Shown: positions 17,513-43,182 of the stretch, in pieces
Position numbering within the stretch: position 1 is the first letter of the stretch
Layout: every line of letters begins with the position of its first letter
Origin: a virus
Lineage: Duplodnaviria > Caudoviricetes
DNA: 64,000 bases
Virus record (IMG/VR): IMGVR_UViG_3300004481_000017
Span: 3,924 to 67,923 of that record
Direction: 5' to 3' (one strand)
Translations under genes and position numbers: made by a program
The notes under the pieces: generated by a model
Told to the model about the DNA's origin: nothing
The model's database searches: none
What the model saw: the letters and a program-made list of their open reading frames with translations, nothing else

Positions 17513-17544
17513 CGGCGGCTCGGGCCGCGTGGTAGCCTTGCCTC

Positions 17545-26364: not shown

Positions 26365-26367
26365 GGT

Positions 26368-28816: not shown

Positions 28817-29150
28817 TCCGCTCCCGAGGCATCAAGAGCCCCGAGACGAACTTGTTGCAGGACGGGCACGGGTGCGTGAACCACATGCCGCCGCGCGTGA
28901 CGCTCGGGTAGAACAAGACCACCACCGGCCCTTCGATGTGCGCTCCGCACGAGCGGCAGTCGAAGTCCGTGAGCGGCCTGGCAAAGCTAACCCGCACCGG
29001 CTCGTGCGTCTCGGGGTCGCATACCCAGTCGGGATGGCCGGCGTAGAGCAGCACCGCAGGCTCGTCTCGGATCTTGGCGGCGTTGATCCCGTCGCGCAGC
29101 CCGATGAAGTCACGGGGGGAGGACTCGGACCAAAGGATGTCGTCAGCCAT
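28788..29150 (-). CDS. Zn-ribbon hypothetical protein
   Basis: ATG 29150 after AGGAGG-like AGGAGGT; CRSC and CPSC. Confidence 0.7.
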   Translation of the reverse strand: MADDILWSESSPRDFIGLRDGINAAKIRDEPAVLLYAGHPDWVCDPETHEPVRVSFARPLTDFDCRSCGAHIEGPVVVLFYPSVTRGGMWFTHPCPSCNKFVSGLLMPRERNGADDERHE

Positions 29151-29161
29151 ACTCGTACCTC

Positions 29162-29902: not shown

Positions 29903-30357
29903 GATGGATGCTCCTCCTGGGAAGGCTTGCTACAGTAGCCGTAGACGCAGCGCGTGCCGCCGCGCGTGCTGTCGTGGTTGTCGTAGATGACGCCGTCGAC
30001 CACGGCGACGTAGTGCCGCGTCACGCTGACCACGAGGCGGCCGGTCGGCAGCTCGTCGGATCGCAAATGTACTTTGCAGCCCGAGCCGATGGTCATGGTC
30101 GGCGTCCATTGCCAGCCGAGACGCTCCATCACACGGTGCGCCGTTCCTTTGAACACGCCCGTGCGCGCGCTTGAGCGCTTCCCCTTGCGGCGACGTGCGC
30201 CGGGGTGCTCGTGCTGAGCCGCCTCGTTGATCATCGCGTAGACCTCGGCGTAGGGCACCTCGGCAGCAATGGCGACGGCGCGGCACAAGCAGTCGCCGGT
30301 CTGGCCCTTGAATCCGGCAGCCGCACGGCCGCCGTCGTGATCGACGAATGCGCTCAC
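29899..30357 (-). CDS. Phage protein with papain/C39-like C-H-D motifs
   Basis: GDCLCRAVAIA, VTRHYVAVVDGVIYDNHD, VYGY. Confidence 0.75.
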   Translation of the reverse strand: MSAFVDHDGGRAAAGFKGQTGDCLCRAVAIAAEVPYAEVYAMINEAAQHEHPGARRRKGKRSSARTGVFKGTAHRVMERLGWQWTPTMTIGSGCKVHLRSDELPTGRLVVSVTRHYVAVVDGVIYDNHDSTRGGTRCVYGYCSKPSQEEHPS

Positions 30358-30632
30358 GTGTCCTCCTGCGCCGGCTCCGCGTACACGCTGCTCTTGTACG
30401 CCCCGAGCCAGCGAAACTCGTCGACCGGGTACACGTCGAACACCTTGACGCTGGCCAGATCCGGCCGGCGCTTGGCGAACGCCCGGAACCACCGCGCGAA
30501 CCGCGACTTGTAGCAGTCCTCATAGATGCCGCCCCTCCAGGCGATGTGCGCCAGGGCTTGGGCGTAGGGCTCCTTGAGGTTCGCGGGGGCCTTGATCGAC
30601 CCCCAAAACGTGTGGTGCCAGATGTCTGCCAT
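30354..30632 (-). CDS. Hypothetical protein
   Basis: ATG 30632 after GGAGG; GTGA overlap. Confidence 0.65.
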   Translation of the reverse strand: MADIWHHTFWGSIKAPANLKEPYAQALAHIAWRGGIYEDCYKSRFARWFRAFAKRRPDLASVKVFDVYPVDEFRWLGAYKSSVYAEPAQEDT

Positions 30633-30646
30633 GGTGGTGTCCTCCA

Positions 30647-30964
30647 TCAGATGCTCGGGACCAGATCCGCCCACTGACCGGCCGACGCGCGTAGCTCGTC
30701 GAGCCGTTGCCGGTACGACCGGCGCGCCTCGATGACCTTCTCGGCGCACCGCTTGTCGATTTCGTCCAGGGCTTCCTGGCGGGCCGCCTGGTCCAGCTCG
30801 GTCGACCGGCGACCCGCCCAGCGCGCCCACTCAAAGCACGTGGCCACGTAGCGCTGGCGCTCGGCACGACGAAGCAACCTGTTGCGCACGCGCTTGGCCC
30901 GTTCGATCGCGGTGAGCACTTCGCTGTCAGTCACGATGCGGCCTCCCAGCTCCACTCTGTGCAT
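30647..30964 (-). CDS. Hypothetical helical protein
   Basis: Charged helical sequence; operon context. Confidence 0.55.
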   Translation of the reverse strand: MHRVELGGRIVTDSEVLTAIERAKRVRNRLLRRAERQRYVATCFEWARWAGRRSTELDQAARQEALDEIDKRCAEKVIEARRSYRQRLDELRASAGQWADLVPSI

Positions 30965-31326
30965 GGCTCCAGAGCCCCGGTGTTGAGGTTGCGACTCGGC
31001 CCGTGAATCCACCACGAGCGGCCGTCATGGTCCAACGGGTCGACCGGCTCGATGTTCCAGTACGGGTCGAGCCATTCGTCGTTCCAGTGGCACAAATCCT
31101 CGCGTGACGTACGCGTGACGCGGAAGCGTATGGGCGGATCAAAGCGCACGTCGCAGCTGTCCGAGCCGACCATGCACGAGGCGCCGCGCACGAGCATCAC
31201 TCGGCCGACCGCTTGCAGGTACTCGCCGAGGGCCAGCGCTTCCAGCTCCTCGGCCGACACTTGGATCGGCGGGGGTGCCAGCCACATGAGCCCGCGCATG
31301 ATGATGTCGTCGTCGCTCTCGACCAT
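30931..31326 (-). CDS. Hypothetical protein
   Basis: ATG 31326 after GAGGTGAG. Confidence 0.65.
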   Translation of the reverse strand: MVESDDDIIMRGLMWLAPPPIQVSAEELEALALGEYLQAVGRVMLVRGASCMVGSDSCDVRFDPPIRFRVTRTSREDLCHWNDEWLDPYWNIEPVDPLDHDGRSWWIHGPSRNLNTGALEPCTEWSWEAAS

Positions 31327-31331
31327 GTAGC

Positions 31332-31880
31332 TCACCTCGCGCATGCGGCGTGGAACGCGCGCCAGAACTGGATCGTGTACTCGCCCGTGGGCAACCGGAA
31401 TGCGAGCCCCGGCCCAGCTTGCACGACCGTGGTCGCGGCGGGCTCGGGCTCGGCTTGTTTCGGCGCCAGCTCGGGAGCCACCTTCGGCTCGCTCGGGGCC
31501 GGCGGCTCGGCCGTCACCTCGTGGCCCGCAACCGTGACGTCGAAGCTGGACGTGTCGCCGTAGGCCGGCACCAGCTCCGCGCGCAGGTCGAGCCCCCCGC
31601 GCCCGTTGTGCCAGCGCAGGTGTAGGCCCTTCGGGTCGAGCCAGGCAATCACTTGGCCCATGGGGCGCATCGCCGTGCGGACCTCTCGCAGGCGCGAGCG
31701 GCGCACCGTCCAGGTTTCGTCGCCAGAGACGAGGCGCACGTAGCGCACATCGGGGTGGTCGACGAGCGCTCGCAGGTGCTCCCACGCGAGCGCCACGACG
31801 TCGCCCGAGCGAGCGGCGCTCTCGGCGAGAGCGGCAGCGGCGAGAGCGGCCTTGGCCTTGAGCTTGGATTTGTCGCTCAC
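31332..31880 (-). CDS. Hypothetical protein (182 aa)
   Basis: GTG after GAGGAG. Confidence 0.65.
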   Translation of the reverse strand: MSDKSKLKAKAALAAAALAESAARSGDVVALAWEHLRALVDHPDVRYVRLVSGDETWTVRRSRLREVRTAMRPMGQVIAWLDPKGLHLRWHNGRGGLDLRAELVPAYGDTSSFDVTVAGHEVTAEPPAPSEPKVAPELAPKQAEPEPAATTVVQAGPGLAFRLPTGEYTIQFWRAFHAACAR

Positions 31881-31882
31881 GG

Positions 31883-32068
31883 TCAGTGCTCCTCGGTTGC
31901 GATGTGCAGCCCGTAGGTGTCGACGGTCGCCGGGCTGTCATCGGACGTCAGTAGGCCGTTTTCCGCAGCGTGCTTCACGACGTGCCGCAGGCACCCGTCC
32001 GGGTCGAAGTTTTCGTCGCCGCCGTCGTCGTAGACGACCACGAGCGTCATCGTGGCTCGGATCTTCAT
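31883..32068 (-). CDS. Hypothetical protein
   Basis: ATG after GGAGGAGG; ATGA overlap. Confidence 0.65.
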   Translation of the reverse strand: MKIRATMTLVVVYDDGGDENFDPDGCLRHVVKHAAENGLLTSDDSPATVDTYGLHIATEEH

Positions 32069-32367
32069 TCCTCCTCCTCGGGCTCGGGGTCCGGCTCGCA
32101 CCGGACGCTCGGCCAGTAGGCAACGATCTGCCGGCCCATCGAGTCGGTGTGGGTGCCGCGCACGAGGCGCGCCATCTCGCGCATCTCGTCGGCGTAGTTC
32201 TCCTCGGTCGCGTCGCCGGCCGCGACGTCGATCATCTCGGCCAGCACCTCGAAGGCGCTATCCACGTGGACCGACAGGCAATACTTGCCGCACATGCCGC
32301 GCCCCGAGTAGGACTGCGGCTCGTATCCGGCGCTGCGGAGCAGGACGGAAAGCTTCTTTGCGTCCAT
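32065..32367 (-). CDS. Conserved phage hypothetical protein
   Basis: YSGRGMCGKYC...DSMG..IVAYWP, a recurrent phage motif. Confidence 0.75.
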   Translation of the reverse strand: MDAKKLSVLLRSAGYEPQSYSGRGMCGKYCLSVHVDSAFEVLAEMIDVAAGDATEENYADEMREMARLVRGTHTDSMGRQIVAYWPSVRCEPDPEPEEEE

Positions 32368-32385
32368 GGTTCTCACCTCCATAAA

Positions 32386-33141
32386 TCAGGCACCCCAGCA
32401 CCAAGTCGCCTTGATGTGAGGGCAATTCCGGGCAAGACGACGGCACTCCCATGAGTTGCCGCCGTAACGCGGGAAGATGTCGACGAGCGCGATGTCGGCG
32501 GTAAGCAGCGGCATGACCTTGTAGGCATCGCCGACGATCACCTCGACGGGCATCCCAAGGTGCGGCGCGAGGCGTGGCACGAGCCACTCCACAAGCTCAG
32601 CGTCGCGCTCCACGAGCACGAGGCTCGTTACCTGCCGGCGGTGGCTGACCTCGACGAGCTGGTGCCCGAGCCCGAGCCCCGCAACCACCACGCGACCCTT
32701 GGCTTTGCGTGTGCCGGGTCGGAGCGTGAGCATTTCCATGGGCGTGATCGACATCCACGGCTCGGGCGACCACCGCTCGGCCCAATCGCTCCACTGGTGC
32801 AGCGCAGGGGCCAGTGCCGGCCCGTCAAACATCACGTTGCCGCGTCGCTTGCCGCTGGCGATTTCAAGCCGTTCGCCTCGGGGCACGACTTTCTCCACGT
32901 AGCACCACCGCCCGCTCGGGCTGACGGCCATGTGCTCGTCGGTTGCTAGGCCGATGTACCCGCCATGGAGCGGGGCCACCTCGAACAAGCGACGAGGCTC
33001 CCAGCTCGACGCGCGGAGCGTCAGCTCGCGATCGAACTTTGTGGTGGGCGTCCAGTCGACGGCTCCAGCCAGCCGCGCTGGGCGGTCCTCTCGCCGGGGC
33101 GTTGCAAACGTCGGTTGCAGCAGTGCCCTAAGTCCTAGCAT
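32386..33141 (-). CDS. Class I SAM-dependent methyltransferase, spermidine-synthase-like
   Basis: RVVVAGLGLG, VLVERD, VIVGDAY, DIALVDIFP. Confidence 0.8.
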   Translation of the reverse strand: MLGLRALLQPTFATPRREDRPARLAGAVDWTPTTKFDRELTLRASSWEPRRLFEVAPLHGGYIGLATDEHMAVSPSGRWCYVEKVVPRGERLEIASGKRRGNVMFDGPALAPALHQWSDWAERWSPEPWMSITPMEMLTLRPGTRKAKGRVVVAGLGLGHQLVEVSHRRQVTSLVLVERDAELVEWLVPRLAPHLGMPVEVIVGDAYKVMPLLTADIALVDIFPRYGGNSWECRRLARNCPHIKATWCWGA

Positions 33142-33150
33142 CGGGTCCTC

Positions 33151-33417
33151 CTAGGCTTGCAGTTCAGGCTTGATGGTTCCGCACTCCAGACAGCGGTAGC
33201 CGCGCACACCGTCGCTGCTCACGTGTCGGCCGTTCTGGTAGGAAAAGCCCCTGCAGCCGCAGACGGAGCAGCTCCCATCGGTCATGCGTTTGCCCGTAGC
33301 GCCCCAGGCCCCGCCCGCGAGCGGGCAGAGGTACGCTTCCCACGGCTTCGGCCCGACGATGGCCCGGTGGCCGGTCTTGCCGCAGGCCATGCACACGCAG
33401 GTGGTTTGCTTGGGCAT
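33151..33417 (-). CDS. Multi-Zn-finger small protein
   Basis: CMAC, CSVCGC, CLECG. Confidence 0.6.
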   Translation of the reverse strand: MPKQTTCVCMACGKTGHRAIVGPKPWEAYLCPLAGGAWGATGKRMTDGSCSVCGCRGFSYQNGRHVSSDGVRGYRCLECGTIKPELQA

Positions 33418-33418
33418 G

Positions 33419-33733
33419 TTACAGATCGCCCTTTCGTGCCAGGTCGAAGGCATTGCGCCAGTACGCAATGCCGTGGCGCTCGCACCAGCGCCACGGCGGC
33501 TCGTGAGAACCATTCGCGTGACGCTCCCGGTCCGTAACGAAGCCGTTGGCTTCGAGCCACGAGAAGGCCCGCCACTCATAGTGGTCGTCGTAGCCGTAGG
33601 CGGGGCCGGTCTGGCCGACCGCAACGCCGTTGACCAGCATGACCGCCGAGCAGTAGGTGTTGCCGTTCTTCCGGTCGAACCAGCGCCGGCCGATGATCGT
33701 GAGCGACCGAATCTTTCCACGCTTGGGCTTCAT
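33419..33733 (-). CDS. Conserved phage hypothetical protein
   Basis: GRRWFDRKNGNTY...YGY..HY motif; SD AAGGAG. Confidence 0.75.
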   Translation of the reverse strand: MKPKRGKIRSLTIIGRRWFDRKNGNTYCSAVMLVNGVAVGQTGPAYGYDDHYEWRAFSWLEANGFVTDRERHANGSHEPPWRWCERHGIAYWRNAFDLARKGDL

Positions 33734-33757
33734 GGCTTTCGCTCCTTCTGGTCGCTG

Positions 33758-34048
33758 CTAGCTTGTGGCAACCCGACTGCGCTTGCGAGCCGCTCGCACC
33801 GCGACGGTCGAGCCATTCCTGGTTGCGATGCGGTAGTCGGGAGCGCAAGCGCGCTCCGGTATGAACACGTCGTGCGTGCCTTCCTGGCACCCCCACGCGT
33901 TGTCGTCCTCGAACCCGTGGCCATCGTCAGCCCTCCAGACGGCGGCGGCGATGGCATCATCCGTTGCCGAGCAGTTGTCAGGAACGGCCACGATCACGGT
34001 CTTGGTCTGGCGGACCAACATCGCCAGCTCGACGACTACTTTACGCAT
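33758..34048 (-). CDS. Hypothetical protein (96 aa)
   Basis: Operon context. Confidence 0.65.
   Translation of the reverse strand: MRKVVVELAMLVRQTKTVIVAVPDNCSATDDAIAAAVWRADDGHGFEDDNAWGCQEGTHDVFIPERACAPDYRIATRNGSTVAVRAARKRSRVATS
33761..33780 (-). repeat. 20-bp junction motif, copy 1
   Basis: Minus strand GCAGTCGGGTTGCCACAAGC; 27 nt before ATG 33733. Confidence 0.8.
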
Positions 34049-34051
34049 GGA

Positions 34052-34423
34052 TCACTTCTCCTCAGTTAGGACAGTGACGACGCCGGCAGCCTTGAGCGTG
34101 CGAGCCGCCAGCTCGGCCGCCTCGACGGCAGCTCGTCGGCTGACGGACGACGGGTGGCGGCTAAGCACCTGGCCCCCCACCACCACCTCGGTCGTGCGTC
34201 CGCGGCGGTCCAGCTTGTCGCACAACTCGATCTTGACGGTGCGATACCCTACCCAGCTCGCTGGCAGGAAGCCGCCCCGACAGATCCACTCGGAGAGCGC
34301 CAGCACCAGCTCGGATAGGCGCCGGGCGTCGCCCATGTCGGGCGACTGGTCTGGCTCCGGGTCGTCGGCCAAGAACGCAGCCGCTAGGGCAAGCTGCTCG
34401 CGCAGGTTCGCGTTGGGGTCCAT
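34052..34423 (-). CDS. Phage hypothetical protein (MDPNANL-type N-terminus)
   Basis: MDPNANL..QL...L..W...GGFLP; SD GGAGG. Confidence 0.75.
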   Translation of the reverse strand: MDPNANLREQLALAAAFLADDPEPDQSPDMGDARRLSELVLALSEWICRGGFLPASWVGYRTVKIELCDKLDRRGRTTEVVVGGQVLSRHPSSVSRRAAVEAAELAARTLKAAGVVTVLTEEK

Positions 34424-34435
34424 GTCAGTCCTCCG

Positions 34436-35260
34436 TCATGCGAGGCGATACGTCCACGCAGCCAGCTCGGCCGCCTCGGCCTCGTGCTCGGCGGTTGGCT
34501 CGGGCGCGCCAGCCAGGCGCGCAATGGTCTGCGCAATGCGAGCGGCCGGCGTCGCGCCAGCGCTCGGCACCGCTCGGGCGGGCGCGACGCGCGCGGCCAC
34601 CTCGGCCGACGACTCACCAGCACGAGCGGTGCGCACGTCGTCTACCTTGAGCGGCTCCAGGTATACCACCATGTCGAACGGGAGCAGGCCCACAATGCGC
34701 CCCAGGCGATCCAGGTAGCTCGACTTGGCCTCTTTGCTGCACGAGCACTGGGCCGCAGAGCCGTGCCGCCCGCAGGGACAAGCGTTGGTGGCGCCGACGA
34801 GTAGCGGAGCGGCCGGGTAGACCACTCGCTCGTCCTTGCGGTACACCGACACGTGGCCCACGTTGAGCACGCCGGCCACGTCAGCCAGCACGCTGCGTCG
34901 AAACTCGGGCAGCTCATCTAGGAAGAGTACGCCTGCGTGTGCGAGGCTCACCTCGCCGGGTCGCACGGGCGAGCCGCCGCCAAGCATGCCAGCCGCGCTC
35001 ACGGTATGGTGCGGCGCTCGGAACGGCCGGTCGACCCGCGGCTCGGGTCCGAAGCCTGCGGCCGTGTAGACCGCGGCCAGCTCGTCGCGCTCGGCTGCGG
35101 TGAGCGGCGGCATGATGGTCGGCAGCCGCCGGGCGAGCATCGTCTTGCCCGCGCCGGGCGGGCCGACGAGCAGCAGGCTGTGGTTGCCGGCGGCGGCGAT
35201 CTCAAGGGCGCGCCTCGCACGCTCCTGCCCGCGCACGTCTGCCATGTCGATGTCAGGCAT
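34436..35260 (-). CDS. comM: Truncated ComM/YifB (Mg-chelatase-like) AAA+ domain lacking trans-acting arginines
   Basis: DVRGQ..RRALEIAAAG.H.LLLVGPPGAGKTMLARR, RPFRAPHH, GEVSLAH.GVLFLDELPEF; no N-terminal Lon-like domain. Confidence 0.9.
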   Translation of the reverse strand: MPDIDMADVRGQERARRALEIAAAGNHSLLLVGPPGAGKTMLARRLPTIMPPLTAAERDELAAVYTAAGFGPEPRVDRPFRAPHHTVSAAGMLGGGSPVRPGEVSLAHAGVLFLDELPEFRRSVLADVAGVLNVGHVSVYRKDERVVYPAAPLLVGATNACPCGRHGSAAQCSCSKEAKSSYLDRLGRIVGLLPFDMVVYLEPLKVDDVRTARAGESSAEVAARVAPARAVPSAGATPAARIAQTIARLAGAPEPTAEHEAEAAELAAWTYRLA

Positions 35261-35474
35261 GATGCTCTCCCTCGCGAGTGCAGTCCGGGCAGACGGTTCG
35301 ATGGTCCCCGGTCATCATTGCCCAGAAGTCCACCGTGAACGACCACCCGTCCTTTTCCGCCTGCTCGCAGACGGACAGCTCCGGTGCGGCAGGCGACGTG
35401 ATTGTGTACGGCGCGGACTCCGCGCCGCACCGGCAGCACGTGACCCGGAGTGTCTTGCCCTTACGTCTAGCCAT
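35253..35474 (-). CDS. Small Zn-finger protein
   Basis: CCRC...GW...CPDC; SD GGAGGAG. Confidence 0.7.
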   Translation of the reverse strand: MARRKGKTLRVTCCRCGAESAPYTITSPAAPELSVCEQAEKDGWSFTVDFWAMMTGDHRTVCPDCTREGEHHA

Positions 35475-35835
35475 GGTGCTCCTCCAGCCAGGCCAACGCG
35501 GCCCGCATGACGTCGGCGTCGTAGCCGCTCCAGCTCCACGACTTTCCGACGAATCCCCACACCGAGTCGACGGTGTGCCACTCGCCGCAGAACCCGCAGC
35601 GGGCCTGCCCGACGATGCCCCACGCGCCCTCACGTTCCAGCATCGCAGCGGCCTGACGCTTGCAACACGGATCGTAGTCCTCGACCGTGAAGTCGTCGTC
35701 AGGCTCGACCACGATGCGCACGAGCCCACGGGCCTCGGCAGCGCTCCAGCGCTCACGCACGAGCGCCATGCTCCACGCCTGCCGGGCGGGCCAGCCATCG
35801 GCTCGGGCGCGCCGGTAGTAGTCGCGTCGGTTCAC
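35467..35835 (-). CDS. Conserved phage hypothetical protein
   Basis: GTG after GGAGGT; DSVWGFVG..SGY motif. Confidence 0.7.
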   Translation of the reverse strand: MNRRDYYRRARADGWPARQAWSMALVRERWSAAEARGLVRIVVEPDDDFTVEDYDPCCKRQAAAMLEREGAWGIVGQARCGFCGEWHTVDSVWGFVGKSWSWSGYDADVMRAALAWLEEHHG

Positions 35836-36587
35836 TTGGCACCTCCTTCGATGTCCTCGGGCTTCACGAGCGGCTCGCTCGTGCGGAAGAACGCATCGCG
35901 CTCCTGGCGCTCCAGCTCCCTGGGCAGCGCCCTGAGCGCAGCGGCCACGGCTTCTGGCGCGATGGTCGACCCGTCGTGCATCTTGGGCACGTTTTGCGGT
36001 GCGTTCTGCACCTCGGCCGCGACCGTCTTGGCCTGCACGAAGCACTCCGTGTGATACTCGGCTTCGAGCGCTGCGAGCCGCTGCTTGTACCTGCACACCT
36101 TGTCGGCGCGCTCGCGCGCGTCCGCCGCCCAGTGGCCGGCGAGTTGGCACGCTACGTTAGCGGCCGACTCGGCCACCGTCCGCGAGCGCCAGGCAGCCAG
36201 GCCCATTTGGAAGGCGTGGACCAAGGCCGCCTCGATGTTCGCGGCTCCAGCCGCAGCCATGAACGCGTCTCGGTCGGTCACGACGTCGGCCGCCCGCTTG
36301 GCAGTCAGCCGCACCTCGAAGCTGGCGGCGAGCGTGTAGCGGCGCAGCTCTTCGCTCCAGCGCGACATGCCCGAGAACGCGGCGCGCTCGACCGACAGCG
36401 GGCCGGCGCAAAGCGCCTTGGCGGTCTTGTCGGTCGCGTCGGCCACGAACCCGGCGGCGCGCTGGGCGTTGTCCTCGCCGGGGTCGGCCTCGACCGACAC
36501 GTACAGCAGAGCGTGGTACGTGTCGCGCTTGAGCCGTCGCGTTTGCGTGCGCAGCTCGCTGGTCCACTTGGTCGTGATTTCGTTCAT
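35832..36587 (-). CDS. Hypothetical Ala-rich helical protein (251 aa)
   Basis: SD GGAGG. Confidence 0.7.
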   Translation of the reverse strand: MNEITTKWTSELRTQTRRLKRDTYHALLYVSVEADPGEDNAQRAAGFVADATDKTAKALCAGPLSVERAAFSGMSRWSEELRRYTLAASFEVRLTAKRAADVVTDRDAFMAAAGAANIEAALVHAFQMGLAAWRSRTVAESAANVACQLAGHWAADARERADKVCRYKQRLAALEAEYHTECFVQAKTVAAEVQNAPQNVPKMHDGSTIAPEAVAAALRALPRELERQERDAFFRTSEPLVKPEDIEGGAK

Positions 36588-36608
36588 GTCGTCCTCCGAT
36601 GGTTGCCA

Positions 36609-36628
36609 GCTTGTGGCAACCCGGCTGC
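36609..36628 (-). repeat. 20-bp junction motif, copy 2
   Basis: GCAGCCGGGTTGCCACAAGC directly after the TGA; 21 nt before ATG 36587. Confidence 0.8.
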
Positions 36629-36913
36629 TCAGTCGGCGCCGCTCAGGTTGGGCACGCAGTCGGAGTCGTCCGCGCAGTGCTCGGCCAACTCCTGCAACTC
36701 GTCGAGCACCGTGCGCAGGCGCGCTACGCGCGCCTCGTGCTCAGCCCTGGCTGCTCGCCACGCATCGTCTCCGAGCGGGTAGTAGTCCCGTTGGTTGGGC
36801 GCAGCCTCGCCGAGCTTGCGCAGGGCGTCCATCACGGCCCCGCCAGCGTTGCAGTACAGGTCGACGAGCCGCGAGCGGCCCGTGCCGTTGATGTGGACGA
36901 ATGGCGTTTGCAT
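36629..36913 (-). CDS. Conserved phage hypothetical protein
   Basis: P.VHINGT...PNQRDYYP motif; SD GAGGAG. Confidence 0.75.
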   Translation of the reverse strand: MQTPFVHINGTGRSRLVDLYCNAGGAVMDALRKLGEAAPNQRDYYPLGDDAWRAARAEHEARVARLRTVLDELQELAEHCADDSDCVPNLSGAD

Positions 36914-36914
36914 G

Positions 36915-37241
36915 TCACTCCTCGAACACGCCGCTGGCCCGCTGCCCGAGCGGCGTCGTGATGTGGAAGTCGCAGCCGTACCAAAGCCAGGGCTTCCGCA
37001 GCCGTTGCCGGAAGGCCGCGAGCGCCTTGCCCACGGCGTCCCCGGAGCCGTCGTAATAGGCGACCACGGTGCGAGTCCGCCGGTCGGGCATGGTCGCGCT
37101 CATGCGCGCGACGCAAGGCCACGGCTCGGCGGACACACGTGCGCACGACGCGCATGCGTCCGGTGCGTCGGGCTCGCCGTTGCCGTCCCGCCCGAGCGCG
37201 ACGACGCTGGCCGTCTTACGTCCGCAGATGTCGCAGTGCAT
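36915..37241 (-). CDS. Hypothetical Zn-binding protein
   Basis: CDIC..CASC; SD GGAGG. Confidence 0.55.
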   Translation of the reverse strand: MHCDICGRKTASVVALGRDGNGEPDAPDACASCARVSAEPWPCVARMSATMPDRRTRTVVAYYDGSGDAVGKALAAFRQRLRKPWLWYGCDFHITTPLGQRASGVFEE

Positions 37242-37367
37242 GGTCCCTCCAGAGCGCACCTCGGCGCCAGCGTGCGCCCACGAGCCGGGGGGAAGCTCCC
37301 AACCCGTGGGCGCACGGCGGCGTCGAGCACCACCGGCAACACGCAGGCGCGTGTTGCGTGCGTGTTG

Positions 37368-38276
37368 CTAGGCTGCCTCGTCGTCGAGCCGGAACTTGCG
37401 CCGGGGGGCGTCGGCCGTGACCAGCGTGGCGGCAGCTTCCTTGATCTGGCCGAGCTGGTTCGCGGCCCACTTGCGCAGGCTCGCATCCTCGCGCAGGTCG
37501 TCGGCGTTGGTGCCTTCGAGCAGGGTGCGCGCCTTGCCAACCAGATCGGCCAGCTCGTTGTCCTCCGAGATGTTCTTGGCGTCAAAGAGCGAGATCCACT
37601 CCTTGAGGCTTTCCACCCGTGAGTCTCGGAAAATCTTGGGCTTGCCGCCATCACGCTCGCCGTCGAGCCGCTCGCGGAGCGACTCAATCAACGCTGCGAA
37701 CGCCTGGCGCATGCTGGAACGCCACTCCGCGGCAGTGTCCTGCATTTCGGACTTGAAAACCTCGCGCTGCTTGTCGAGCAAGGCGGTGGAGATTGCGCCC
37801 AGCGCAGCGGGCTCCCCGATCTGCTCGAAGTTAGCGCGCACCTTCCAGGCTTCGACGAACTTCTCGCGCGAGGGATAGTCCGCTCGGTCGAACATCGGGC
37901 CGAGCCGCTTTGCGTCGTCGGCGATGATGTTGGGCAGATCGTCGGCCAGGTCGAGCACCATGCGCTCGCGCACGGGCTTCCACGACTCGATGATGTCGAT
38001 GGCCCGCTCCACGACGCCAAGGGGCATGAAGATGCACCCTTCCGCGTAGGCGAAACCCAGCGACTTGAGCCGAGCGCGGCACTTGCCGTCGCCCTTCACG
38101 ATGTCTTTGGCCGCCTTGGACTCCAAGAGCTTCTTGGTTACGCGCACCGCCTGCTCGGGCACGGCGGCGCCGTCCTTGCAAGCCGTGACCTGGACCTGTG
38201 CGCCGTCCACCTCGCGAGTCGTGCCGAAGCACGAAAATCCGAAGCGCAGAAACGCGCCCTTGTCGATTGCTGACAT
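37368..38276 (-). CDS. DUF3150-like protein (302 aa)
   Basis: VTKKLL, LG.MFDRADYPS, LRERL.G..KIFRDS..ESL pattern; last gene of the AAA module. Confidence 0.65.
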   Translation of the reverse strand: MSAIDKGAFLRFGFSCFGTTREVDGAQVQVTACKDGAAVPEQAVRVTKKLLESKAAKDIVKGDGKCRARLKSLGFAYAEGCIFMPLGVVERAIDIIESWKPVRERMVLDLADDLPNIIADDAKRLGPMFDRADYPSREKFVEAWKVRANFEQIGEPAALGAISTALLDKQREVFKSEMQDTAAEWRSSMRQAFAALIESLRERLDGERDGGKPKIFRDSRVESLKEWISLFDAKNISEDNELADLVGKARTLLEGTNADDLREDASLRKWAANQLGQIKEAAATLVTADAPRRKFRLDDEAA

Positions 38277-38324
38277 GATTGCTTCCCCTTCCCGCGGCCC
38301 GTCGTGGGCCGCTGAAACTTGTTC

Positions 38325-38344
38325 GCTCGTGGCGACCCGGCTGC
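38325..38344 (-). repeat. 20-bp junction motif, copy 3
   Basis: GCAGCCGGGTCGCCACGAGC; 9 nt after stop 38354 and 48 nt before ATG 38276. Confidence 0.75.
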
Positions 38345-38353
38345 GCCGGGCGC

Positions 38354-38584
38354 CTACTTCGCGCCCGCTTTCGCGTGGTCGTGCTCATGCGCGTGGGCGT
38401 GCGCATGCGCGTGCGTGTGCCCGACGTGCGAGCGCTCTTCGACGGCAACGCCCAGCTCGCCGAGCAGGGCAGCCATGAAGCCTTCCGCCGTGGCGTGCGT
38501 CGCGCCCGCGAAAGAGCCCGTTTCGATGCGGATTCTGCCGTCCGGCAGGATCACGATCTCCAGGGTGTTGACCGGCTGCGCCAT
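38354..38584 (-). CDS. DUF2997-like protein with His-rich tail
   Basis: LEIVILPDGRIRIETGSFAG..H..A..F...LG; GHTHAHAHAHAHEHDH. Confidence 0.7.
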   Translation of the reverse strand: MAQPVNTLEIVILPDGRIRIETGSFAGATHATAEGFMAALLGELGVAVEERSHVGHTHAHAHAHAHEHDHAKAGAK

Positions 38585-38586
38585 TG

Positions 38587-38946
38587 CTACCTCCCAAGGA
38601 CGATGCGACGAGCACCGCCCAGTAGTTGCTCCGCTCCCTTGACCTGGAAGCCGAAACGAGCCGACACGTCAGCCACGGTGCGCGCCGCATAAGCGCGCTT
38701 CACGCTGGCCAGCACCGACTCCGCAGTCTCGGTCCCGTAACCCGTGGTCACGCTGGCGCCTTGAGCGCTCACGCGGACAGACACGCCGTTGCGGCTCGCG
38801 GTAATGACGCGCGAGTCGAGCGTGGCCGTGGCCTCGCCCGTGATCGTCACAGTCCACCCGTCGTCGCGCATGGCCGCCGCGAGCCGGCCGCGGTTGACCG
38901 CTACCAGCTCGGGGGCCGTCGTGCGGATTCTCGTGTCGCAGGGCAT
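38587..38946 (-). CDS. DUF1257/Ycf35-like protein
   Basis: L..AM...GW..., VKRAYA..TV....RFGF.V...RIVL; lies between the AAA and DUF2997-like genes. Confidence 0.6.
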   Translation of the reverse strand: MPCDTRIRTTAPELVAVNRGRLAAAMRDDGWTVTITGEATATLDSRVITASRNGVSVRVSAQGASVTTGYGTETAESVLASVKRAYAARTVADVSARFGFQVKGAEQLLGGARRIVLGR

Positions 38947-38947
38947 G

Positions 38948-40501
38948 TTACTCTCCCGCTTTGATGCGTCGGCCGCCCGCCGCGACGACGGGCGCCGTCT
39001 CGGTGGACTCGTCCTGCGTGCCGCGGTAGAGCCCGGCGTAGCTCGTGGACAAGTACGCGCCGCGCGCTTGCGCCCGCAGATCCGCGAGCCGGCCCGCGAA
39101 CGATGCAGACGCCGGGGCATAGACCGCCATGACGGCAGCAACCGAGACGCCGTGTTGCTTCGCGCGTCGGCACACGTTGCGCACGTCCGCGCCCGCGTAC
39201 CCGCGATCCGCCTTGGGGTTGGGCACCGAGTCGCCGAGCCCGTACTTGCCAATGTAGAGCGCCCACAGCGCGGCGCGCTCGTCTGGCCCTGGGAGATCCG
39301 CGTACCAGATCCCGTCAGTGAAGCGCCGCAGCAGCTCACCAGGAACCTGCCCGAGCCCGTTCGACGTCGCGATCCAGTAGCAGCGCCCAGCGAGCGCGCG
39401 GATCGTCGACATGGCCGTCGCGGCGTTGCCTTCAGTCTCGCCCACAATGCCGCCCTTGAGATTCTGTGGCATGAATTGGATCACGGGGATAGAGCCCGCT
39501 CCACCGAGGGCACGTGCCATCAGCGACTTGCCCGTCCCCGGAGCGCCGACGAACACAAGCCCCTCGGATTCGGACGACTCCATTTCATCGAGCATGCCGG
39601 CCAGGATCGACTGGCTCGTGCCGCTGCTATCAGCAACGGCGCCAGACGAGCCCGCTAGCACCTTCTCGATTTCATCGATCCAGATGATCGCGTCGGGGCG
39701 GAAGTCGCCCGACATGACCAGGCGAATGTGATCTTTGGCGGAAGCGTGCCCGGCCACCGCGTCGAGCGGCGTACCGTCACCGCCGTCGCTTTCGACGCGC
39801 AGCCCCTTGACGCGGCCCACCGCGTCGCGCCAGGTCTTGCGCATGACGTCGAGCTGCAAACCGTCCTTGGCGGTTGCCAGGCTCGTGACCTGCTCGGCTG
39901 CGAACCGGGCGAGCCCGCGCGTGTACGTCGCGGCTCGCGCCAGGGTGGCGTCGTCCACCTTAAGATTCGCGCTTTCGGCGAGGGCGACGATAGTCGCTCG
40001 CCGCTCCTGCTCGTCGGGCAGCGGATCGTCAATCACGTGGACGTCATTGCCCAGCTCTGCGGCAGGCGCCCAGCTCGGCCCGAGCGCGACAAGCTGCCGG
40101 CCTGAGTCGGCAAAGACGTCCCGCAGCCACAAGGCAGCAAGCGCCGGCTTGGGCTCAGCGAGCGCCCGGTTGCCCGCGGCGAGCACCACAAGCGTGTCCG
40201 CAGGCACCGCTTGCGACCGCTGCAAGGCAGTAACCGGGTCGGTGCAGATGGACGGGTCCATCTGCTTACGCTGGGGGGGGCCGCCATACTGCTCGTCCGG
40301 TACTTCGACCGTGAGCATGGCCGCCACCGCTTCCTTGCCGGCCTTGTTCAGGGCCAGCGCGCCACGCACCGGGTCGAGCAGCACCGCAGGGCGGTCGACC
40401 GCCGCCAGCTTGCGGATTACCGCAGGCTGGTCAGGCGTGCGAACCGCTACCAGCGGCACGCCGCGCCGGTGGGCGTGGTCAAGCTCCTTGAGCAGGTCCA
40501 T
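38948..40501 (-). CDS. Ycf46-like AAA+ ATPase with Walker B block placed before Walker A
   Basis: Inactive N-terminal AAA-like domain; IIWIDEIEK (39690-39662) precedes GAPGTGKS (39547-39524); then IATSN, ELLRRF, DLP..ER. Confidence 0.88.
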   Translation of the reverse strand: MDLLKELDHAHRRGVPLVAVRTPDQPAVIRKLAAVDRPAVLLDPVRGALALNKAGKEAVAAMLTVEVPDEQYGGPPQRKQMDPSICTDPVTALQRSQAVPADTLVVLAAGNRALAEPKPALAALWLRDVFADSGRQLVALGPSWAPAAELGNDVHVIDDPLPDEQERRATIVALAESANLKVDDATLARAATYTRGLARFAAEQVTSLATAKDGLQLDVMRKTWRDAVGRVKGLRVESDGGDGTPLDAVAGHASAKDHIRLVMSGDFRPDAIIWIDEIEKVLAGSSGAVADSSGTSQSILAGMLDEMESSESEGLVFVGAPGTGKSLMARALGGAGSIPVIQFMPQNLKGGIVGETEGNAATAMSTIRALAGRCYWIATSNGLGQVPGELLRRFTDGIWYADLPGPDERAALWALYIGKYGLGDSVPNPKADRGYAGADVRNVCRRAKQHGVSVAAVMAVYAPASASFAGRLADLRAQARGAYLSTSYAGLYRGTQDESTETAPVVAAGGRRIKAGE

Positions 40502-40599
40502 GTGCGTTGCTCCCATGCGGCAACCCGATGTTGCCGCGGTCGTGGTGCCTCGCCAGCACGCGAGCGTTGCTCACGCGCTAGCGGCGCATCACGCGCCGG

Positions 40600-40935
40600 T
40601 CAGTCGTCGTCGCACGGCCAGAAGCCGAGCAGGGCGCCGTCCCCAGGGTGGGCGCCAAAGTACGTGCCAGCGGGCGCGTGCTCGCTCAGCAACTCGAAGA
40701 GCGACTCTGCTAGCTCGCACGCGTCGTCGCTTGCCCACCAGTCGCTGCTCTCGTCCTCGGCAGCGTAGCTTGGCAGGGCCGAGAACCCGGCACCGGGGCA
40801 GACACACTGCTGGTAGGCTTCCGGCGCCAGCTCGCGCAAGGCGTCGAGCATGGCCGGGATTGTGTCCTGCCGGCGCATGGTGCCCTCGCTGACCGTTGCC
40901 GCCCCATAGGCGGCTAGCTGGCTCGCGACGCTCAT
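40600..40935 (-). CDS. Conserved phage hypothetical protein
   Basis: GTMR..D.IP.ML..L...AP.GTYFGAHPGDG...GFW motif. Confidence 0.8.
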   Translation of the reverse strand: MSVASQLAAYGAATVSEGTMRRQDTIPAMLDALRELAPEAYQQCVCPGAGFSALPSYAAEDESSDWWASDDACELAESLFELLSEHAPAGTYFGAHPGDGALLGFWPCDDD

Positions 40936-41585
40936 GGCTCCACCATCAGGTCGACCGGCACGGGGCCGGCGCCGAGCGTCTGCCCCGCCTTCCGATACAT
41001 GCGCAGGACGATCTTCTGCTCTGCCGTGGCGTCGTCGCCTGCGTCGCGGATGCGGCGCAAGCTATCCCACAGGGCCGACGTGCCTTGCGCATACTCGCGA
41101 GCAGTCTGGCCCAGCTTGTTTACGATGCGCGAGTCCAGCTCACGGTCCCTCGTTTCCGGGTCGAGCAGCGTTTCGGCGTAGCGGCGCGCTTCAGCACGAA
41201 CGTGCATGAACGCCGGGTGACGTTCGCTCGGTCGGTCGTGCGGGTCACGCACAACGCCACCGCTTAGCTCGAAAAGCGGGGATTTGGCGCCATGGGAGAA
41301 GAGCATTTCGGCGAGGGCCAGCCGATCCCGCTCGACCGTCAGGTCAAGCGGCTCGTCATACCCGCACGAGGAGAGCGCGCTCGCCACCGTCTCGGGCGAA
41401 GCGCCCGCCAAGTCGACGGTCGCAACGCTCGCGACGAAGAGCGCATCCGCGTCGCGCCCACAGTACGCGGGCAGGTCAATTACCTCGACGAACACATACG
41501 TGCTCCCCGAGGCGCGCACGTAGAGCCACTGATCGGACCCGCCATCGGCGAGCACCGTCCAGTGGCGAGCGTACTTCCCTCGCAT
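40932..41585 (-). CDS. Hypothetical protein, first gene of the leftward cluster
   Basis: ATG 41585 after GGAGGGAAG. Confidence 0.75.
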   Translation of the reverse strand: MRGKYARHWTVLADGGSDQWLYVRASGSTYVFVEVIDLPAYCGRDADALFVASVATVDLAGASPETVASALSSCGYDEPLDLTVERDRLALAEMLFSHGAKSPLFELSGGVVRDPHDRPSERHPAFMHVRAEARRYAETLLDPETRDRELDSRIVNKLGQTAREYAQGTSALWDSLRRIRDAGDDATAEQKIVLRMYRKAGQTLGAGPVPVDLMVEP

Positions 41586-41740
41586 GTTGCTTCCCTCCGT
41601 TGCCCCGTCGTGGGGCGCAGCATGCCCGCGAGTCGTGCTCACGAGCATGCGGCGCGCCGCGCCGTTGCCGGAAAACCGACTCCCGCACCGCCGGCACGGC
41701 GTGGGCTCGGACCGTCTAGGGCCAATCCATCGGAACCTCC

Positions 41741-41823
41741 GGTCGCATCGCCAGGGATCGAACCTGTACGCCGGCCACCCGAGCGGGCGGGACTTCCGCG
41801 TCCCCTTTTCGCCAGCCGATGCG
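41741..41823 (-). ncRNA. tRNA-like element or pseudo-tRNA (class II scaffold, no canonical anticodon arm)
   Basis: 7-bp acceptor CGCATCG/CGATGCG; T-arm CAGG-TTCGATC-CCTG; D-arm TGGCG-AAAAGGGGA-CGC; ends ACC(G). Confidence 0.55.
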
Positions 41824-41968
41824 ATTCGCGGCTCGGTAGGGTGCCGGCCGCGCTGTACCTGTTAGCTCGCTCCGTTCTGCGCTTGCGCGCCGTTGTGCCC
41901 GTGGCGCTCTATGCTGCCGCGGTATTGCTGCCCGCCGACTTTCGTCGCCGTGCTTACGAACGCTGCTA

Positions 41969-41988
41969 TCCGGTGGCGACCCGGTTGC
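41969..41988 (-). repeat. 20-bp motif, degenerate copy (15/20)
   Basis: GCAACCGGGTCGCCACCGGA. Confidence 0.55.
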
Positions 41989-42022
41989 CCGAGCCCTCCG
42001 TTTGCGTTCACACCCGCTGCTG

Positions 42023-42042
42023 GCTTGTGGCAACCCGGATGC
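42023..42042 (-). repeat. 20-bp motif, copy 4
   Basis: GCATCCGGGTTGCCACAAGC. Confidence 0.8.
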
Positions 42043-42054
42043 GAACCGCGGTGC

Positions 42055-42116
42055 TCGTGACGATAACGTGTAGGACATGCCCCTACACGTGACGGTAAGT
42101 GCTCTTATCGTCACGA
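42055..42116. repeat. Nested perfect inverted repeats
   Basis: TCGTGACGATAA 42055-66 / TTATCGTCACGA 42105-16; ACGTGTAGG 42066-74 / CCTACACGT 42082-90. Confidence 0.8.
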
Positions 42117-42300
42117 CGTGCGGCTATGCCTGGTCCTGCTCATGGTCGAGCATGCCTGGCCACGGCTGGCCGTTCCTGCCCCCTGGCTGCCCCGTGGCGC
42201 GTCTTTGCCGTGCCATGGGGCAGAGCCGGCCGATCTGGACGCTGGCGCGGTGCCAGCGCTCGCGAGCGCGGTGCATTGCGCGCCGTGGTACGATGCGCGC

Positions 42301-43182
42301 ATGTCGGCACGATGCGCAGCGGTGCGCAACGCGGATCTCGCAGACGCGCTGGAGCACGCAAGCGATTACCACGACCGAGAGCTGCGGATAGAGGACTTCG
42401 ACGTCTCGCAGCCCGAGCAGATCGCCATCCGCTCGATCCCTGATGATCTCTCGTCGTGGACAGAATGGCGCCCAGGCGAGCTGCTCCGCGACTTCGACGA
42501 CGAAGAGCGCTTCGTCGAGCTGGATAGCTTCCGCGGTCGTCCGTGGGCCGAGCGAGCGTCGAGCTGGACGCCTTCGACCATGCCGCCCATCGTCTTGGTC
42601 GAGACGAGCGACTACGAAGGCGTCGCCGACGGGCGAGGCCGCGTCTCCTACGCCATCGGCATGGGCTGGCCGACCGTCCCAGCCGTGCGGATGGTCGAGC
42701 GCAAGCGAGCGGCCTACAACAGGAACGCTAGGGATCTGGTAGTCAGAGCGGCACGGAAGGCGAAGGTGTCCGCGACGAGCAAGCTCGTCGCCTTCGGGAT
42801 TGCGGACCGCTACACCGTCAAGGTCAGGCCGATCGGCGTGACGAACGCCATCGGACAGTACCGCTCGTTCTCGCAGTTCCAATCCGGACCCATCTTCTGG
42901 ATCAGCGATCGTCTCGACGAGCAACGCGTAGCCGAAGGGGTGAGAGCCCCACTCGAACAGATCATCGAGGACACCATCCTGCATGAGTACGGGCACGTCG
43001 TATGGGAGTTTGCTCGCATCCGAGCCGACCAGCTCATGCAGATGATCCTCGACATCGAGGACAACGAAGAAGAGTTCGCCGAGACGTTCGCTGTCGCAGT
43101 CCGCAGGGGAGCGGCGTCACCCGTTTACAGATTGATCGCTGCCGCCTACCAACGTGTCCTACTCGGCGACCAACACGCTTGA
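42301..43182 (+). CDS. ParB/Srx-like domain fused to a zincin (HExxH) domain
   Basis: MPPIVLV...VADGRGRV..A..MG...VPA; TILHEYGHVV...EEEFAETF. Confidence 0.7.
   Translation: MSARCAAVRNADLADALEHASDYHDRELRIEDFDVSQPEQIAIRSIPDDLSSWTEWRPGELLRDFDDEERFVELDSFRGRPWAERASSWTPSTMPPIVLVETSDYEGVADGRGRVSYAIGMGWPTVPAVRMVERKRAAYNRNARDLVVRAARKAKVSATSKLVAFGIADRYTVKVRPIGVTNAIGQYRSFSQFQSGPIFWISDRLDEQRVAEGVRAPLEQIIEDTILHEYGHVVWEFARIRADQLMQMILDIEDNEEEFAETFAVAVRRGAASPVYRLIAAAYQRVLLGDQHA

What the first reader, a model, noticed from the sequence alone, without database searches (positions are those of the whole stretch)
41741..41823. tRNA-like element with acceptor, D and T arms but no canonical anticodon arm
Seen (minus strand): perfect acceptor CGCATCG (41823-17) / CGATGCG (41750-44), A73 then CC; T-arm CAGG-TTCGATC-CCTG; Leu-like D-arm TGGCG-AAAAGGGGA-CGCG. 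Deviations: two extra nt before U8, an A.G pair at 49-65, CCG rather than CCA, and the anticodon region replaced by a 6-bp hairpin CCGCCC-GCTC-GGGTGG. It sits just upstream of the leftward gene cluster. Inference: a tRNA mimic (for example a decoy for anticodon nucleases or an RNase P/Z processing signal), a decaying tRNA, or part of an att site for the integrase.
Basis: partly seen in the sequence, partly recalled or inferred. Interest (0 to 1): 0.8.

Follow-up and report, generated by a model that had tools for sequence, protein, structure and literature searches.

The report
Degenerate tRNA-like relic in phage leader
An 83-base stretch in a non-coding gap of an uncultured phage keeps the top half of a tRNA (acceptor stem and T arm) but has no anticodon loop; it is most likely a worn-down phage tRNA gene, and it is only modestly unusual.

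Summary
On the minus strand at 41823-41741 there is a perfect 7-bp acceptor stem, a T arm (CAGG/TTCGATC/CCTG) directly abutting it, a D-like loop with GGGG, A73-CC, and a 6-bp/GCUC hairpin where the anticodon arm should be.

It is not a canonical tRNA. ARAGORN at default finds nothing, Rfam tRNA finds nothing, and the best Rfam match is tRNA-Sec at 12.3 bits against a cut-off of 47. ARAGORN calls it only at -ps85, which is noise level. The acceptor plus T-arm combination occurs in 5 of 300 shuffled windows.

It lies in a roughly 715-nt non-coding gap, 156 nt upstream of a 217-aa gene of unknown function. Homologues of that gene in other phages sit next to real tRNA genes or inside tRNA arrays.

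A roughly 90%-identical metagenomic contig keeps the 3' acceptor strand and the T loop. Its T stem changes compensatorily (A-U to U-A, A.G to C-G), and the central 53 nt are about 40% different. My partial reconstruction of that allele passes ARAGORN at default as an odd tRNA-Pro(AGG).

Best reading (about 0.5): a tRNA-derived, non-decoding relic. Its intact top half may still act as an RNase P or CCA-enzyme substrate in the leftward leader.

No attP evidence was found, and no RNA data were available.

The parts
41741..41823 (-). The whole tRNA-like element, 83 nt
   Evidence: Sequence read. ARAGORN calls it only from -ps85 down, as 'tRNA-Arg(CCG)' with a 3/5 anticodon stem. It is the only 7/7 acceptor plus T-arm motif in the window.
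41817..41823 (-). 5' acceptor strand CGCATCG
   Evidence: Two short contigs of run X1 keep this strand and the upstream flank, then diverge at 41817 or 41804 (tables 5, 7 and 8).
41798..41812 (-). D-like arm: 3-bp stem GCG/CGC with loop AAAAGGGGA, which holds the GG that would pair with the T loop
   Evidence: Only 3 bp pair. The match to a canonical D arm is inconclusive.
41775..41790 (-). 6-bp hairpin with GCUC tetraloop in place of the anticodon arm
   Evidence: In the X6 allele the inner GCCC/GGG core persists, with an AUA loop and G.U changed to G-C. An alternative 4-5 bp stem with a 7-nt loop AUAGGGC also becomes possible there.
41751..41767 (-). T arm: ACAGG / TTCGATC / CCTGG
   Evidence: The X6 allele reads CCTGG / TTCGACT / CCAGG: pair 51-63 goes from A-U to U-A, and 49-65 goes from A.G to C-G.
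41741..41750 (-). 3' acceptor strand CGATGCG, then A73 and CC
   Evidence: No difference from the window is listed here for X6, X4 or X3.
41586..42300 (.). Non-coding gap between the divergent genes, holding the element
   Evidence: Codon-position GC profile and translations.
40932..41585 (-). Gene A: 217 aa, unknown function, first gene of the leftward cluster, 156 nt downstream of the element
   Evidence: 66 homologues. No Pfam or PHROG hit. The AF2 model has pLDDT 93 and no Foldseek match in the PDB.
41961..42043 (-). Two tandem copies of a 29-nt motif that recurs before genes of the leftward cluster; possible promoter or processing site upstream of the element
   Evidence: the repeat finder family D1: 6 copies, at 33753, 36601, 38317, 40505, 41961 and 42015.

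Best explanation
The element is the degenerate descendant of a phage-borne tRNA gene. It has lost a usable anticodon arm, so it cannot decode. It still has the 'top half' of a tRNA: a 7-bp acceptor stem stacked on a T arm with a UUCGA loop, a GG-containing D-like loop, and A73-CC.

Inferred, not shown: it is transcribed leftward as part of the long leader of the 40932-41585 gene cluster, perhaps from the repeated 29-nt motifs at 41961-42043. In that case the intact top half would still be recognised by the host enzymes that read only that half. RNase P would cut 5' of C1, and 3' trimming and CCA addition would follow. The relic would then act, at most, as a leader-processing site.
For: 1. The anatomy is real and uncommon: one strict acceptor plus T-arm motif in the window, against 5 of 300 shuffles with one.

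2. It fails as a tRNA.
- ARAGORN at default finds 0.
- Rfam at gathering thresholds finds 0.
- RF00005 on the whole 67.9-kb record finds 0.
- The best sub-threshold family is tRNA-Sec of the tRNA clan, at 12.3 bits against a cut-off of 47, aligning only the acceptor and T arm.
- ARAGORN reaches it only at -ps85. At that setting the real window gives 39 calls. Shuffled windows give 3.5 calls each at -ps90 and 97 each at -ps80.

3. A related contig (X6, 999 nt, about 90% identical over 41300-41932) behaves as follows.
- The 3' acceptor strand plus ACC is unchanged.
- The T-loop UUCGA is kept.
- The T stem changes compensatorily.
- It gains a C that pairs with G8.
- 22 of the 53 central positions differ.

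4. My reconstruction of the X6 allele is called a tRNA by ARAGORN at default. That threshold gave 0 calls in 3.84 Mb of shuffles.

5. The window-type allele recurs. It is identical in X3. X4 agrees with the window at every position where X6 differs.

6. Gene A has tRNA neighbours elsewhere.
- A canonical tRNA lies directly upstream, in the same orientation, in 2 of 29 relatives: L013 tRNA-Met and L029 tRNA-Leu, which ends 14 nt before the ORF.
- In the 191-kb phage G002 the gene sits at the edge of a 29-tRNA array that also holds sub-threshold tRNA-like members.
- In the 435-kb phage G003 it lies close to tRNAs.
Against: - The X6 allele is a reconstruction from a difference table. 18 of X6's differences were not displayed and probably lie in 41800-41932, which includes the 5' acceptor strand and the D arm. 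When I randomised that part at 13.5%, ARAGORN kept the call in only about 25% of trials.
- A central block that is about 40% diverged inside flanks that are about 9% diverged is not simple neutral decay. It looks like replacement, or like selection on a variable body.
- 27 of 29 relatives of gene A have no tRNA immediately upstream. The nearest metagenomic relative, L006, loses homology about 85 nt upstream of the ATG and its contig ends there.
- Transcription, processing and orientation of expression are all inferred. No RNA data were obtainable.
Confidence: 0.5

Rival explanations
1. It is a maintained, functional top-half tRNA mimic. The acceptor/T-arm minihelix plus elbow is kept under selection as an RNase P/RNase Z processing signal for the leftward operon leader, or as bait for another host or defence factor that reads the acceptor/T domain. 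The body is free, or driven, to vary.
For: - The T-loop UUCGA, G53-C61 and the 3' acceptor strand plus ACC are all unchanged in X6, while 22 of 53 neighbouring positions differ. The T-stem changes are compensatory.
- The window-type allele is present in at least two further samples.
- U at -1, A73 and C74-C75 are the features bacterial RNase P favours (established knowledge).
- M. smegmatis YrlA shows that a tRNA-like module with a 7-bp acceptor stem is cut by RNase P and receives CCA in vivo (PMC4201824).
- The element lies downstream of two copies of a gene-proximal repeated motif and upstream of the first gene of the cluster.
Against: - There is only one diverged allele, and it is incompletely known.
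- One compensatory pair could equally come from a swap with another real tRNA gene.
- No homologue was found in IMG/VR, nor in the 34 related loci searched with a covariance model.
- There is no thermodynamic signal.
- There is no expression evidence.
Confidence: 0.22
2. It is a chance resemblance in GC-rich non-coding DNA.
For: - 5 of 300 shuffled windows contain an equally strict acceptor plus T-arm motif.
- The ARAGORN score lies in the noise range.
- Fold energy equals that of shuffles.
- The scan covers very many windows.
Against: The X6 allele becomes more tRNA-like, not less: a perfect 5-bp T stem, an 8-bp acceptor and a 7-nt loop option. The T loop is conserved within a highly diverged block. 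Homologues of the adjacent gene associate with tRNA genes.
Confidence: 0.08
3. It is an attP-type recombination site, or a tRNA fragment captured or duplicated by integration into a host tRNA gene.
For: - Integrative elements commonly carry the 3' part of a tRNA gene.
- A protein with a Phage_integrase domain exists in the window.
- GC content steps from 0.69 to 0.64 at about 42 kb.
Against: - The element carries both acceptor strands, not just a 3' part.
- The 21-mer GGTTCGATCCCTGGCGATGCG is absent from the genome-contig collection (one genome for each of 185,579 bacterial and archaeal species) and from IMG/VR.
- The best second copy in the window is a 13-mer in inverted orientation inside coding sequence, with E = 0.12.
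- The integrase gene (17536-21108) is more than 20 kb away.
Confidence: 0.05
4. It is a genuine but structurally aberrant decoding tRNA, of the 8/4, 9/4 or allo-tRNA-like kind, that standard finders miss.
For: - The best Rfam alignment is to tRNA-Sec, using a 9/4-type acceptor/T geometry with U-1:A73.
- Two extra nucleotides lie between the acceptor and the D stem, as described for irregular 8/4 allo-tRNA-like sequences from soil and sediment (PMC7609411).
- The X6 allele offers U33 and a purine at 37 around AGG.
Against: - In the window allele no 7-nt loop can be drawn on a stem of more than 3 bp. The region is locked in a 6-bp stem with a tetraloop.
- There is no long variable arm in the right place.
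- The score is far below every threshold.
Confidence: 0.05

Closest known systems
Phage-encoded tRNA genes and their pseudogenes or fragments (tRNA arrays of large phages; tRNA gene fragments discussed in PMC9897764, title and abstract only)
   Same: 7-bp acceptor stem, T arm with UUCGA, GG in a D-like loop, and A73. It sits in a phage beside a gene that neighbours tRNA arrays in other phages. A relative's allele passes a tRNA finder.
   Different: No anticodon loop, two extra nucleotides after the acceptor stem, an A.G pair at 49-65, and scores below all detection thresholds. It is the only such element in the 68-kb record.
tRNA-like domain of tmRNA
   Same: Acceptor stem plus T arm without an anticodon arm.
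   Different: In tmRNA the two halves are separated by about 300 nt holding a tag ORF and pseudoknots, and the stem carries G3.U70. Here the element is 83 contiguous nt with C3-G70. ARAGORN and Rfam tmRNA models find nothing. The -ps80 'permuted tmRNA' call is noise.
YrlA-type bacterial and mycobacteriophage Y RNAs (PMC4201824)
   Same: A tRNA-like module with acceptor, D-like and T arms but no decoding function. The M. smegmatis example is cut by RNase P and gains CCA.
   Different: YrlA is defined by a Ro60-binding helix and an adjacent Ro60 (TROVE) gene. No TROVE gene exists in this record and there is no Rfam hit. In YrlA the RNA ends lie at the 'anticodon' side, not at the acceptor.
tRNA-Sec, allo-tRNA and irregular 8/4 tRNA-like sequences (PMC7609411)
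   Same: A longer acceptor/T geometry is possible (U-1:A73; 8-bp acceptor in X6), there are extra nucleotides between the acceptor and D stems, and the origin is sediment or wastewater metagenomes.
   Different: No 6-bp anticodon stem with a 7-nt loop, and no correctly placed long variable arm. The score is 12.3 bits against a cut-off of 47.
tRNA-like processing signals (plant mitochondrial t-elements, MALAT1 mascRNA; from my own knowledge)
   Same: A tRNA-shaped module inside a longer transcript, used only as an RNase P/Z cleavage signal. This is what the element would work like if it is functional.
   Different: Those are eukaryotic or organellar and experimentally shown. Nothing is shown here.

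Membership tests
Canonical tRNA (Rfam RF00005 / ARAGORN) | Score at or above the detection threshold (29 bits for Rfam; ARAGORN default) | tested here: not met
   ARAGORN calls it only at -ps85 or lower, which is noise level.
Canonical tRNA (Rfam RF00005 / ARAGORN) | 7-bp acceptor stem directly stacked on a T arm with a T-loop UUCRA | tested here: met
   The T stem has 4 Watson-Crick pairs plus A.G.
Canonical tRNA (Rfam RF00005 / ARAGORN) | 5-bp anticodon stem with a 7-nt loop (U33, purine 37) | tested here: not met
   Only a 3/5 stem with no U33 can be drawn. The region forms a 6-bp stem with a GCUC loop.
Canonical tRNA (Rfam RF00005 / ARAGORN) | D arm with a 3-4 bp stem, G18G19, and two nucleotides (8 and 9) after the acceptor stem | tested here: inconclusive
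   A 3-bp GCG/CGC stem and a GGGG loop are present, but four nucleotides, not two, precede the stem.
tmRNA | Tag reading frame and pseudoknots between the halves of the tRNA-like domain; G3.U70 | tested here: not met
   The sequence shows C3-G70.
YrlA / Y RNA | Ro60 (TROVE) gene in the genome and a Ro-binding helix; Rfam model match | tested here: not met
   PF05731 is absent from the record. There is no Rfam match. The record is only about 54% complete.
attP or tRNA-gene fragment of an integrative element | Identity of the core with the 3' end of a host tRNA gene | tested here: not met
   The 21-mer is absent from the genome-contig collection of 185,579 species genomes. The host is unknown, so shorter cores remain untested.
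attP or tRNA-gene fragment of an integrative element | Adjacent integrase, or a direct repeat at the other end | tested here: not met
   The integrase domain lies at 17536-21108. No significant second copy exists in the window.
Functional structured RNA in general | Covariation across several homologues | tested here: inconclusive
   Only one diverged allele is available, and it is partly reconstructed. It shows one double compensatory pair and one repaired pair in the T stem. No further homologues were found.
Functional structured RNA in general | A discrete transcript with defined ends | not testable with these tools
   No listed holder run is on record as RNA.

The most novel reading that the evidence does not exclude
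A small group of environmental phages maintains, in the leader of an operon, a tRNA 'top-half' module: acceptor stem, T arm, elbow and ACC tail. Its body is swapped or rapidly diversified between close relatives. At least two alleles are seen, and possibly four. The module would serve as an RNase P/CCA-enzyme-dependent processing or decoy RNA rather than as an adaptor.
Probability: 0.15. Interest if true: 0.65.

Novelty: new member of a known kind. Interest (0 to 1): 0.3.

Why it matters
If it is only a relic, it shows how phage tRNA genes erode, with the top half outlasting the anticodon arm, and it warns that tRNA finders at relaxed thresholds return mostly noise in GC-rich DNA.

If the top half is maintained, it would be a bacterial-virus counterpart of the tRNA-like processing signals known from organelles and mammals, and an unusual case of a conserved tRNA scaffold with a hypervariable body.

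Either way, it marks the 217-aa neighbour family as worth a look. That family has 66 members and a confident fold with no Foldseek match in the PDB, and in several relatives it lies next to phage tRNA genes.

Tried and rejected
The 46.5-kb contig of the 95%-identical protein P0003 and other long contigs could therefore not be fetched.
- **Phage-database and IMG/VR DNA searches found nothing useful.**
  - Megablast and blastn of the region against 50,697 phage records gave no match.
  - Four IMG/VR patterns were tried. Three gave no match. The degenerate T-loop plus acceptor pattern gave 23 hits, none with a 5' acceptor strand or an ARAGORN call. These are chance matches.
- **Protein-guided loci.** Single-protein scans of IMG/VR found none. 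Scans with the 51-sequence alignment of gene A gave 34 loci. None carries a homologue of the element by blastn, by motif scan or by a covariance model built from the two alleles. The best non-self hits are a real tRNA-Arg in L003 and a terminator-like hairpin in L017.
- **No RNA holder listed**.
- **A 13-mer repeat at 25291-25303** lies inside coding sequence in inverted orientation and was rejected as an att duplicate.
- **The ARAGORN 'permuted tmRNA' call at -ps80** has a tag that does not look like a tmRNA tag and was rejected as noise.
- **Gene A function.** No Pfam, PHROG or PDB sequence match and no Foldseek match in the PDB.

Full report
**Setting**

- The window is bases 3924-67923 of a 67.9-kb linear IMG/VR virus record, rated about 54% complete. 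GC content is 62-70%.
- A codon-position GC profile and translations place two genes around the finding.
  - A leftward gene runs 40932-41585. Its ATG follows GGAGGG.
  - A rightward gene most probably starts near 42301.
- The finding therefore lies in a roughly 715-nt divergent non-coding gap, 156 nt upstream of the leftward gene and on the same strand.
- The one frame that stays open through the element has no start codon before 41648 and translates to Arg-rich junk.

**The observation**

- a perfect 7-bp acceptor stem (41823-41817 with 41750-41744);
- A73, then CC, then G;
- a T arm CAGG/TTCGATC/CCTG that abuts the acceptor strand, with A.G at 49-65;
- a GG-rich D-like loop;
- a 6-bp hairpin with a GCUC loop where the anticodon arm should be.

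One correction: the 'D stem' pairs only as GCG/CGC (3 bp).

**How far from chance**

- A strict acceptor plus T-arm motif occurs once in the window and in 5 of 300 dinucleotide-preserving shuffles.
- Folding energy is indistinguishable from shuffles.

**Is it a tRNA? No, not by any normal criterion**

- ARAGORN at default finds no tRNA or tmRNA in the window.
- Rfam finds nothing at gathering thresholds. It finds nothing relevant at E up to 10 over 801 nt.
- RF00005 finds nothing in the whole record.
- When only 106 nt are searched, the best family is tRNA-Sec of the tRNA clan, at 12.3 bits against a cut-off of 47. Only the acceptor and T arm align.
- ARAGORN calls the element 'tRNA-Arg(CCG)' only from -ps85 down, with a 3/5 anticodon stem and no U33.
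- That setting is noise. The real window gives 39 calls at -ps85. Shuffled windows give 3.5 calls each at -ps90 and 97 each at -ps80, against 0 in 3.84 Mb at default.

**Relatives of the element itself**

No phage record and no IMG/VR contig holds it. Public runs hold near-identical pieces, and I laid the contigs of four runs on 41300-42400.

- **X3:** a contig is identical over 41714-41864.
- **X4:** a contig covers 41688-41834 with 6 substitutions and 1 gap. It agrees with the window at every position where X6 differs.
- **X6:** a 999-nt contig is about 90% identical over 41300-41932, but the element's interior is very different.
  - Within 41751-41803 there are 14 substitutions and 8 single-base indels.
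  - 41741-41750 shows none.
  - The 140-nt leader below the element shows 12.
- **X1:** two short contigs keep the upstream flank and the 5' acceptor strand. They diverge at 41817 or 41804 and rejoin a ribosome-site hairpin motif after 68-77 other letters. This is about the room an 83-nt element needs, so further alleles may exist. I could not see those letters.

Applying the listed X6 changes gives these results:
- The T arm becomes CCTGG/TTCGACT/CCAGG.
- Pair 51-63 switches from A-U to U-A.
- The A.G at 49-65 becomes C-G.
- An inserted C pairs with G8.
- A stem CGCC(C)/(U)GGCG with the loop AUAGGGC becomes possible.
- ARAGORN at default calls this reconstruction tRNA-Pro(AGG), an odd one with an 8-bp acceptor and a weak D arm.

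Caveats on the reconstruction:
- 18 of X6's differences were not displayed. They probably lie in 41800-41932, which includes the 5' acceptor strand and the D arm.
- When I randomised that part at 13.5%, ARAGORN kept the call in about a quarter of trials.
- The inner GCCC/GGG hairpin is shared by both alleles, so the 7-nt loop in X6 may itself be an alternative fold.
- MFE folding of either allele is uninformative in this GC-rich sequence.

**Context from more distant relatives**

- The downstream gene has 66 homologues at 33-95% identity. I fetched 34 loci carrying it.
- In two loci a canonical tRNA lies directly upstream on the same strand.
  - L013 has tRNA-Met about 200-240 nt before the gene.
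  - L029 has tRNA-Leu ending 14 nt before the ORF.
- In the 191-kb phage G002 the gene sits at the edge of a 29-tRNA array. That array also holds tRNA-like members that ARAGORN calls only at -ps90.
- In the 435-kb phage G003 tRNAs lie nearby.
- Most loci (27 of 29 with upstream sequence) have no tRNA there, so this is an association, not a rule.
- The closest metagenomic contig (L006, 91% protein identity) loses homology about 85 nt upstream of the ATG and ends at 180 nt. It says nothing about the element beyond showing that the gap is mosaic.

**Reading**

The simplest account is a phage tRNA gene that has lost its anticodon arm in this lineage. The evidence fits as follows:
- the top half and the ACC tail are intact;
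- a relative has a more tRNA-like allele;
- the neighbouring gene keeps company with tRNA genes elsewhere.

What does not fit plain neutral decay is the contrast between the flanks (about 9% diverged) and the body (about 40% diverged, with indels). That looks like replacement by recombination with another tRNA-like sequence, or like a scaffold under selection with a free body. I therefore keep a maintained top-half mimic as the main rival.

If the element is transcribed from the repeated 29-nt motifs at 41961-42043, RNase P should cut 5' of C1. U-1, A73 and C74C75 are favourable by established knowledge of bacterial RNase P. A tRNA-like module with a 7-bp acceptor stem is cut and CCA-tailed in M. 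smegmatis YrlA (PMC4201824).

Other readings:
- The anticodon-nuclease decoy idea fails for want of an anticodon loop.
- The att-site idea found no support.
- YrlA membership fails: there is no TROVE gene and no Rfam hit.
- tmRNA membership fails.

**Verdict**

This is a real, tRNA-derived, non-decoding element. It is most likely a pseudo-tRNA, possibly still a processing site. It is a new member of a known kind, of modest interest unless further alleles show that the top half is maintained.

Noticed in passing
window 33753-33781, 36601-36629, 38317-38345, 40505-40533, 41961-41989, 42015-42043: A 29-nt motif occurs six times on the minus strand (69-100% identical to the reference copy; core GGGTTGCCAC). 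Four copies lie just before start codons of the leftward cluster and two lie in tandem upstream of the tRNA-like element. It may be a phage-specific promoter or processing site. It is absent from the relatives' loci.
   Followed up: partly
window 41716-41740 (minus strand): Directly after the element's ACC tail comes GGAGG, 5 nt, then ATG GAT TGG CCC TAG. This is a 4-codon mini-ORF (MDWP) with a strong ribosome site. Its 15 nt are unchanged in the X6 contig, while the spacer before it changes.
   Followed up: no
window 40932-41585 (minus strand): The 217-aa protein belongs to a family of at least 66 members from phage and metagenome contigs, with no Pfam, PHROG or PDB sequence match. The AF2 model is confident (pLDDT 93.2) yet has no Foldseek match in the PDB. 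In several phages it neighbours tRNA genes.
   Followed up: partly
L003 943-1017, 1020-1102, 1106-1189, 4039-4111 (minus strand); record G002: A 191-kb phage with 29 Rfam-level tRNAs in one array also carries several tRNA-like genes with good acceptor and T arms that ARAGORN calls only at -ps90. They may be non-canonical tRNAs.
   Followed up: no
window 41932-42013: In the X6 contig this 80-nt block is replaced by 83 unrelated letters, while both flanks align. The gap is mosaic between close relatives.
   Followed up: no
window 41593-41649 and 38287-38413: A ribosome-site hairpin (41593-41618, similar to 38287-38312) and a GC-rich palindrome (41632-41649, similar to 37093, 38378 and 38396) recur in front of two genes of the cluster. 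The 85 nt before the ATG at 41585 are about 96% conserved in L006.
   Followed up: no
window 26000-42000: The leftward cluster has GC of 0.66-0.70, against 0.62-0.65 on both sides. This is a compositional island whose right edge coincides with the gap that holds the element.
   Followed up: no
L017 30-41, 3655-3666, 5323-5334, 6298-6309: A repeated intergenic hairpin (GGGGCA, loop CGGCGTACAGG, TGCCCC) lies 35-40 nt before start codons in a related GC-rich contig. Its loop shares a 12-mer with the element, probably by coincidence.
   Followed up: partly
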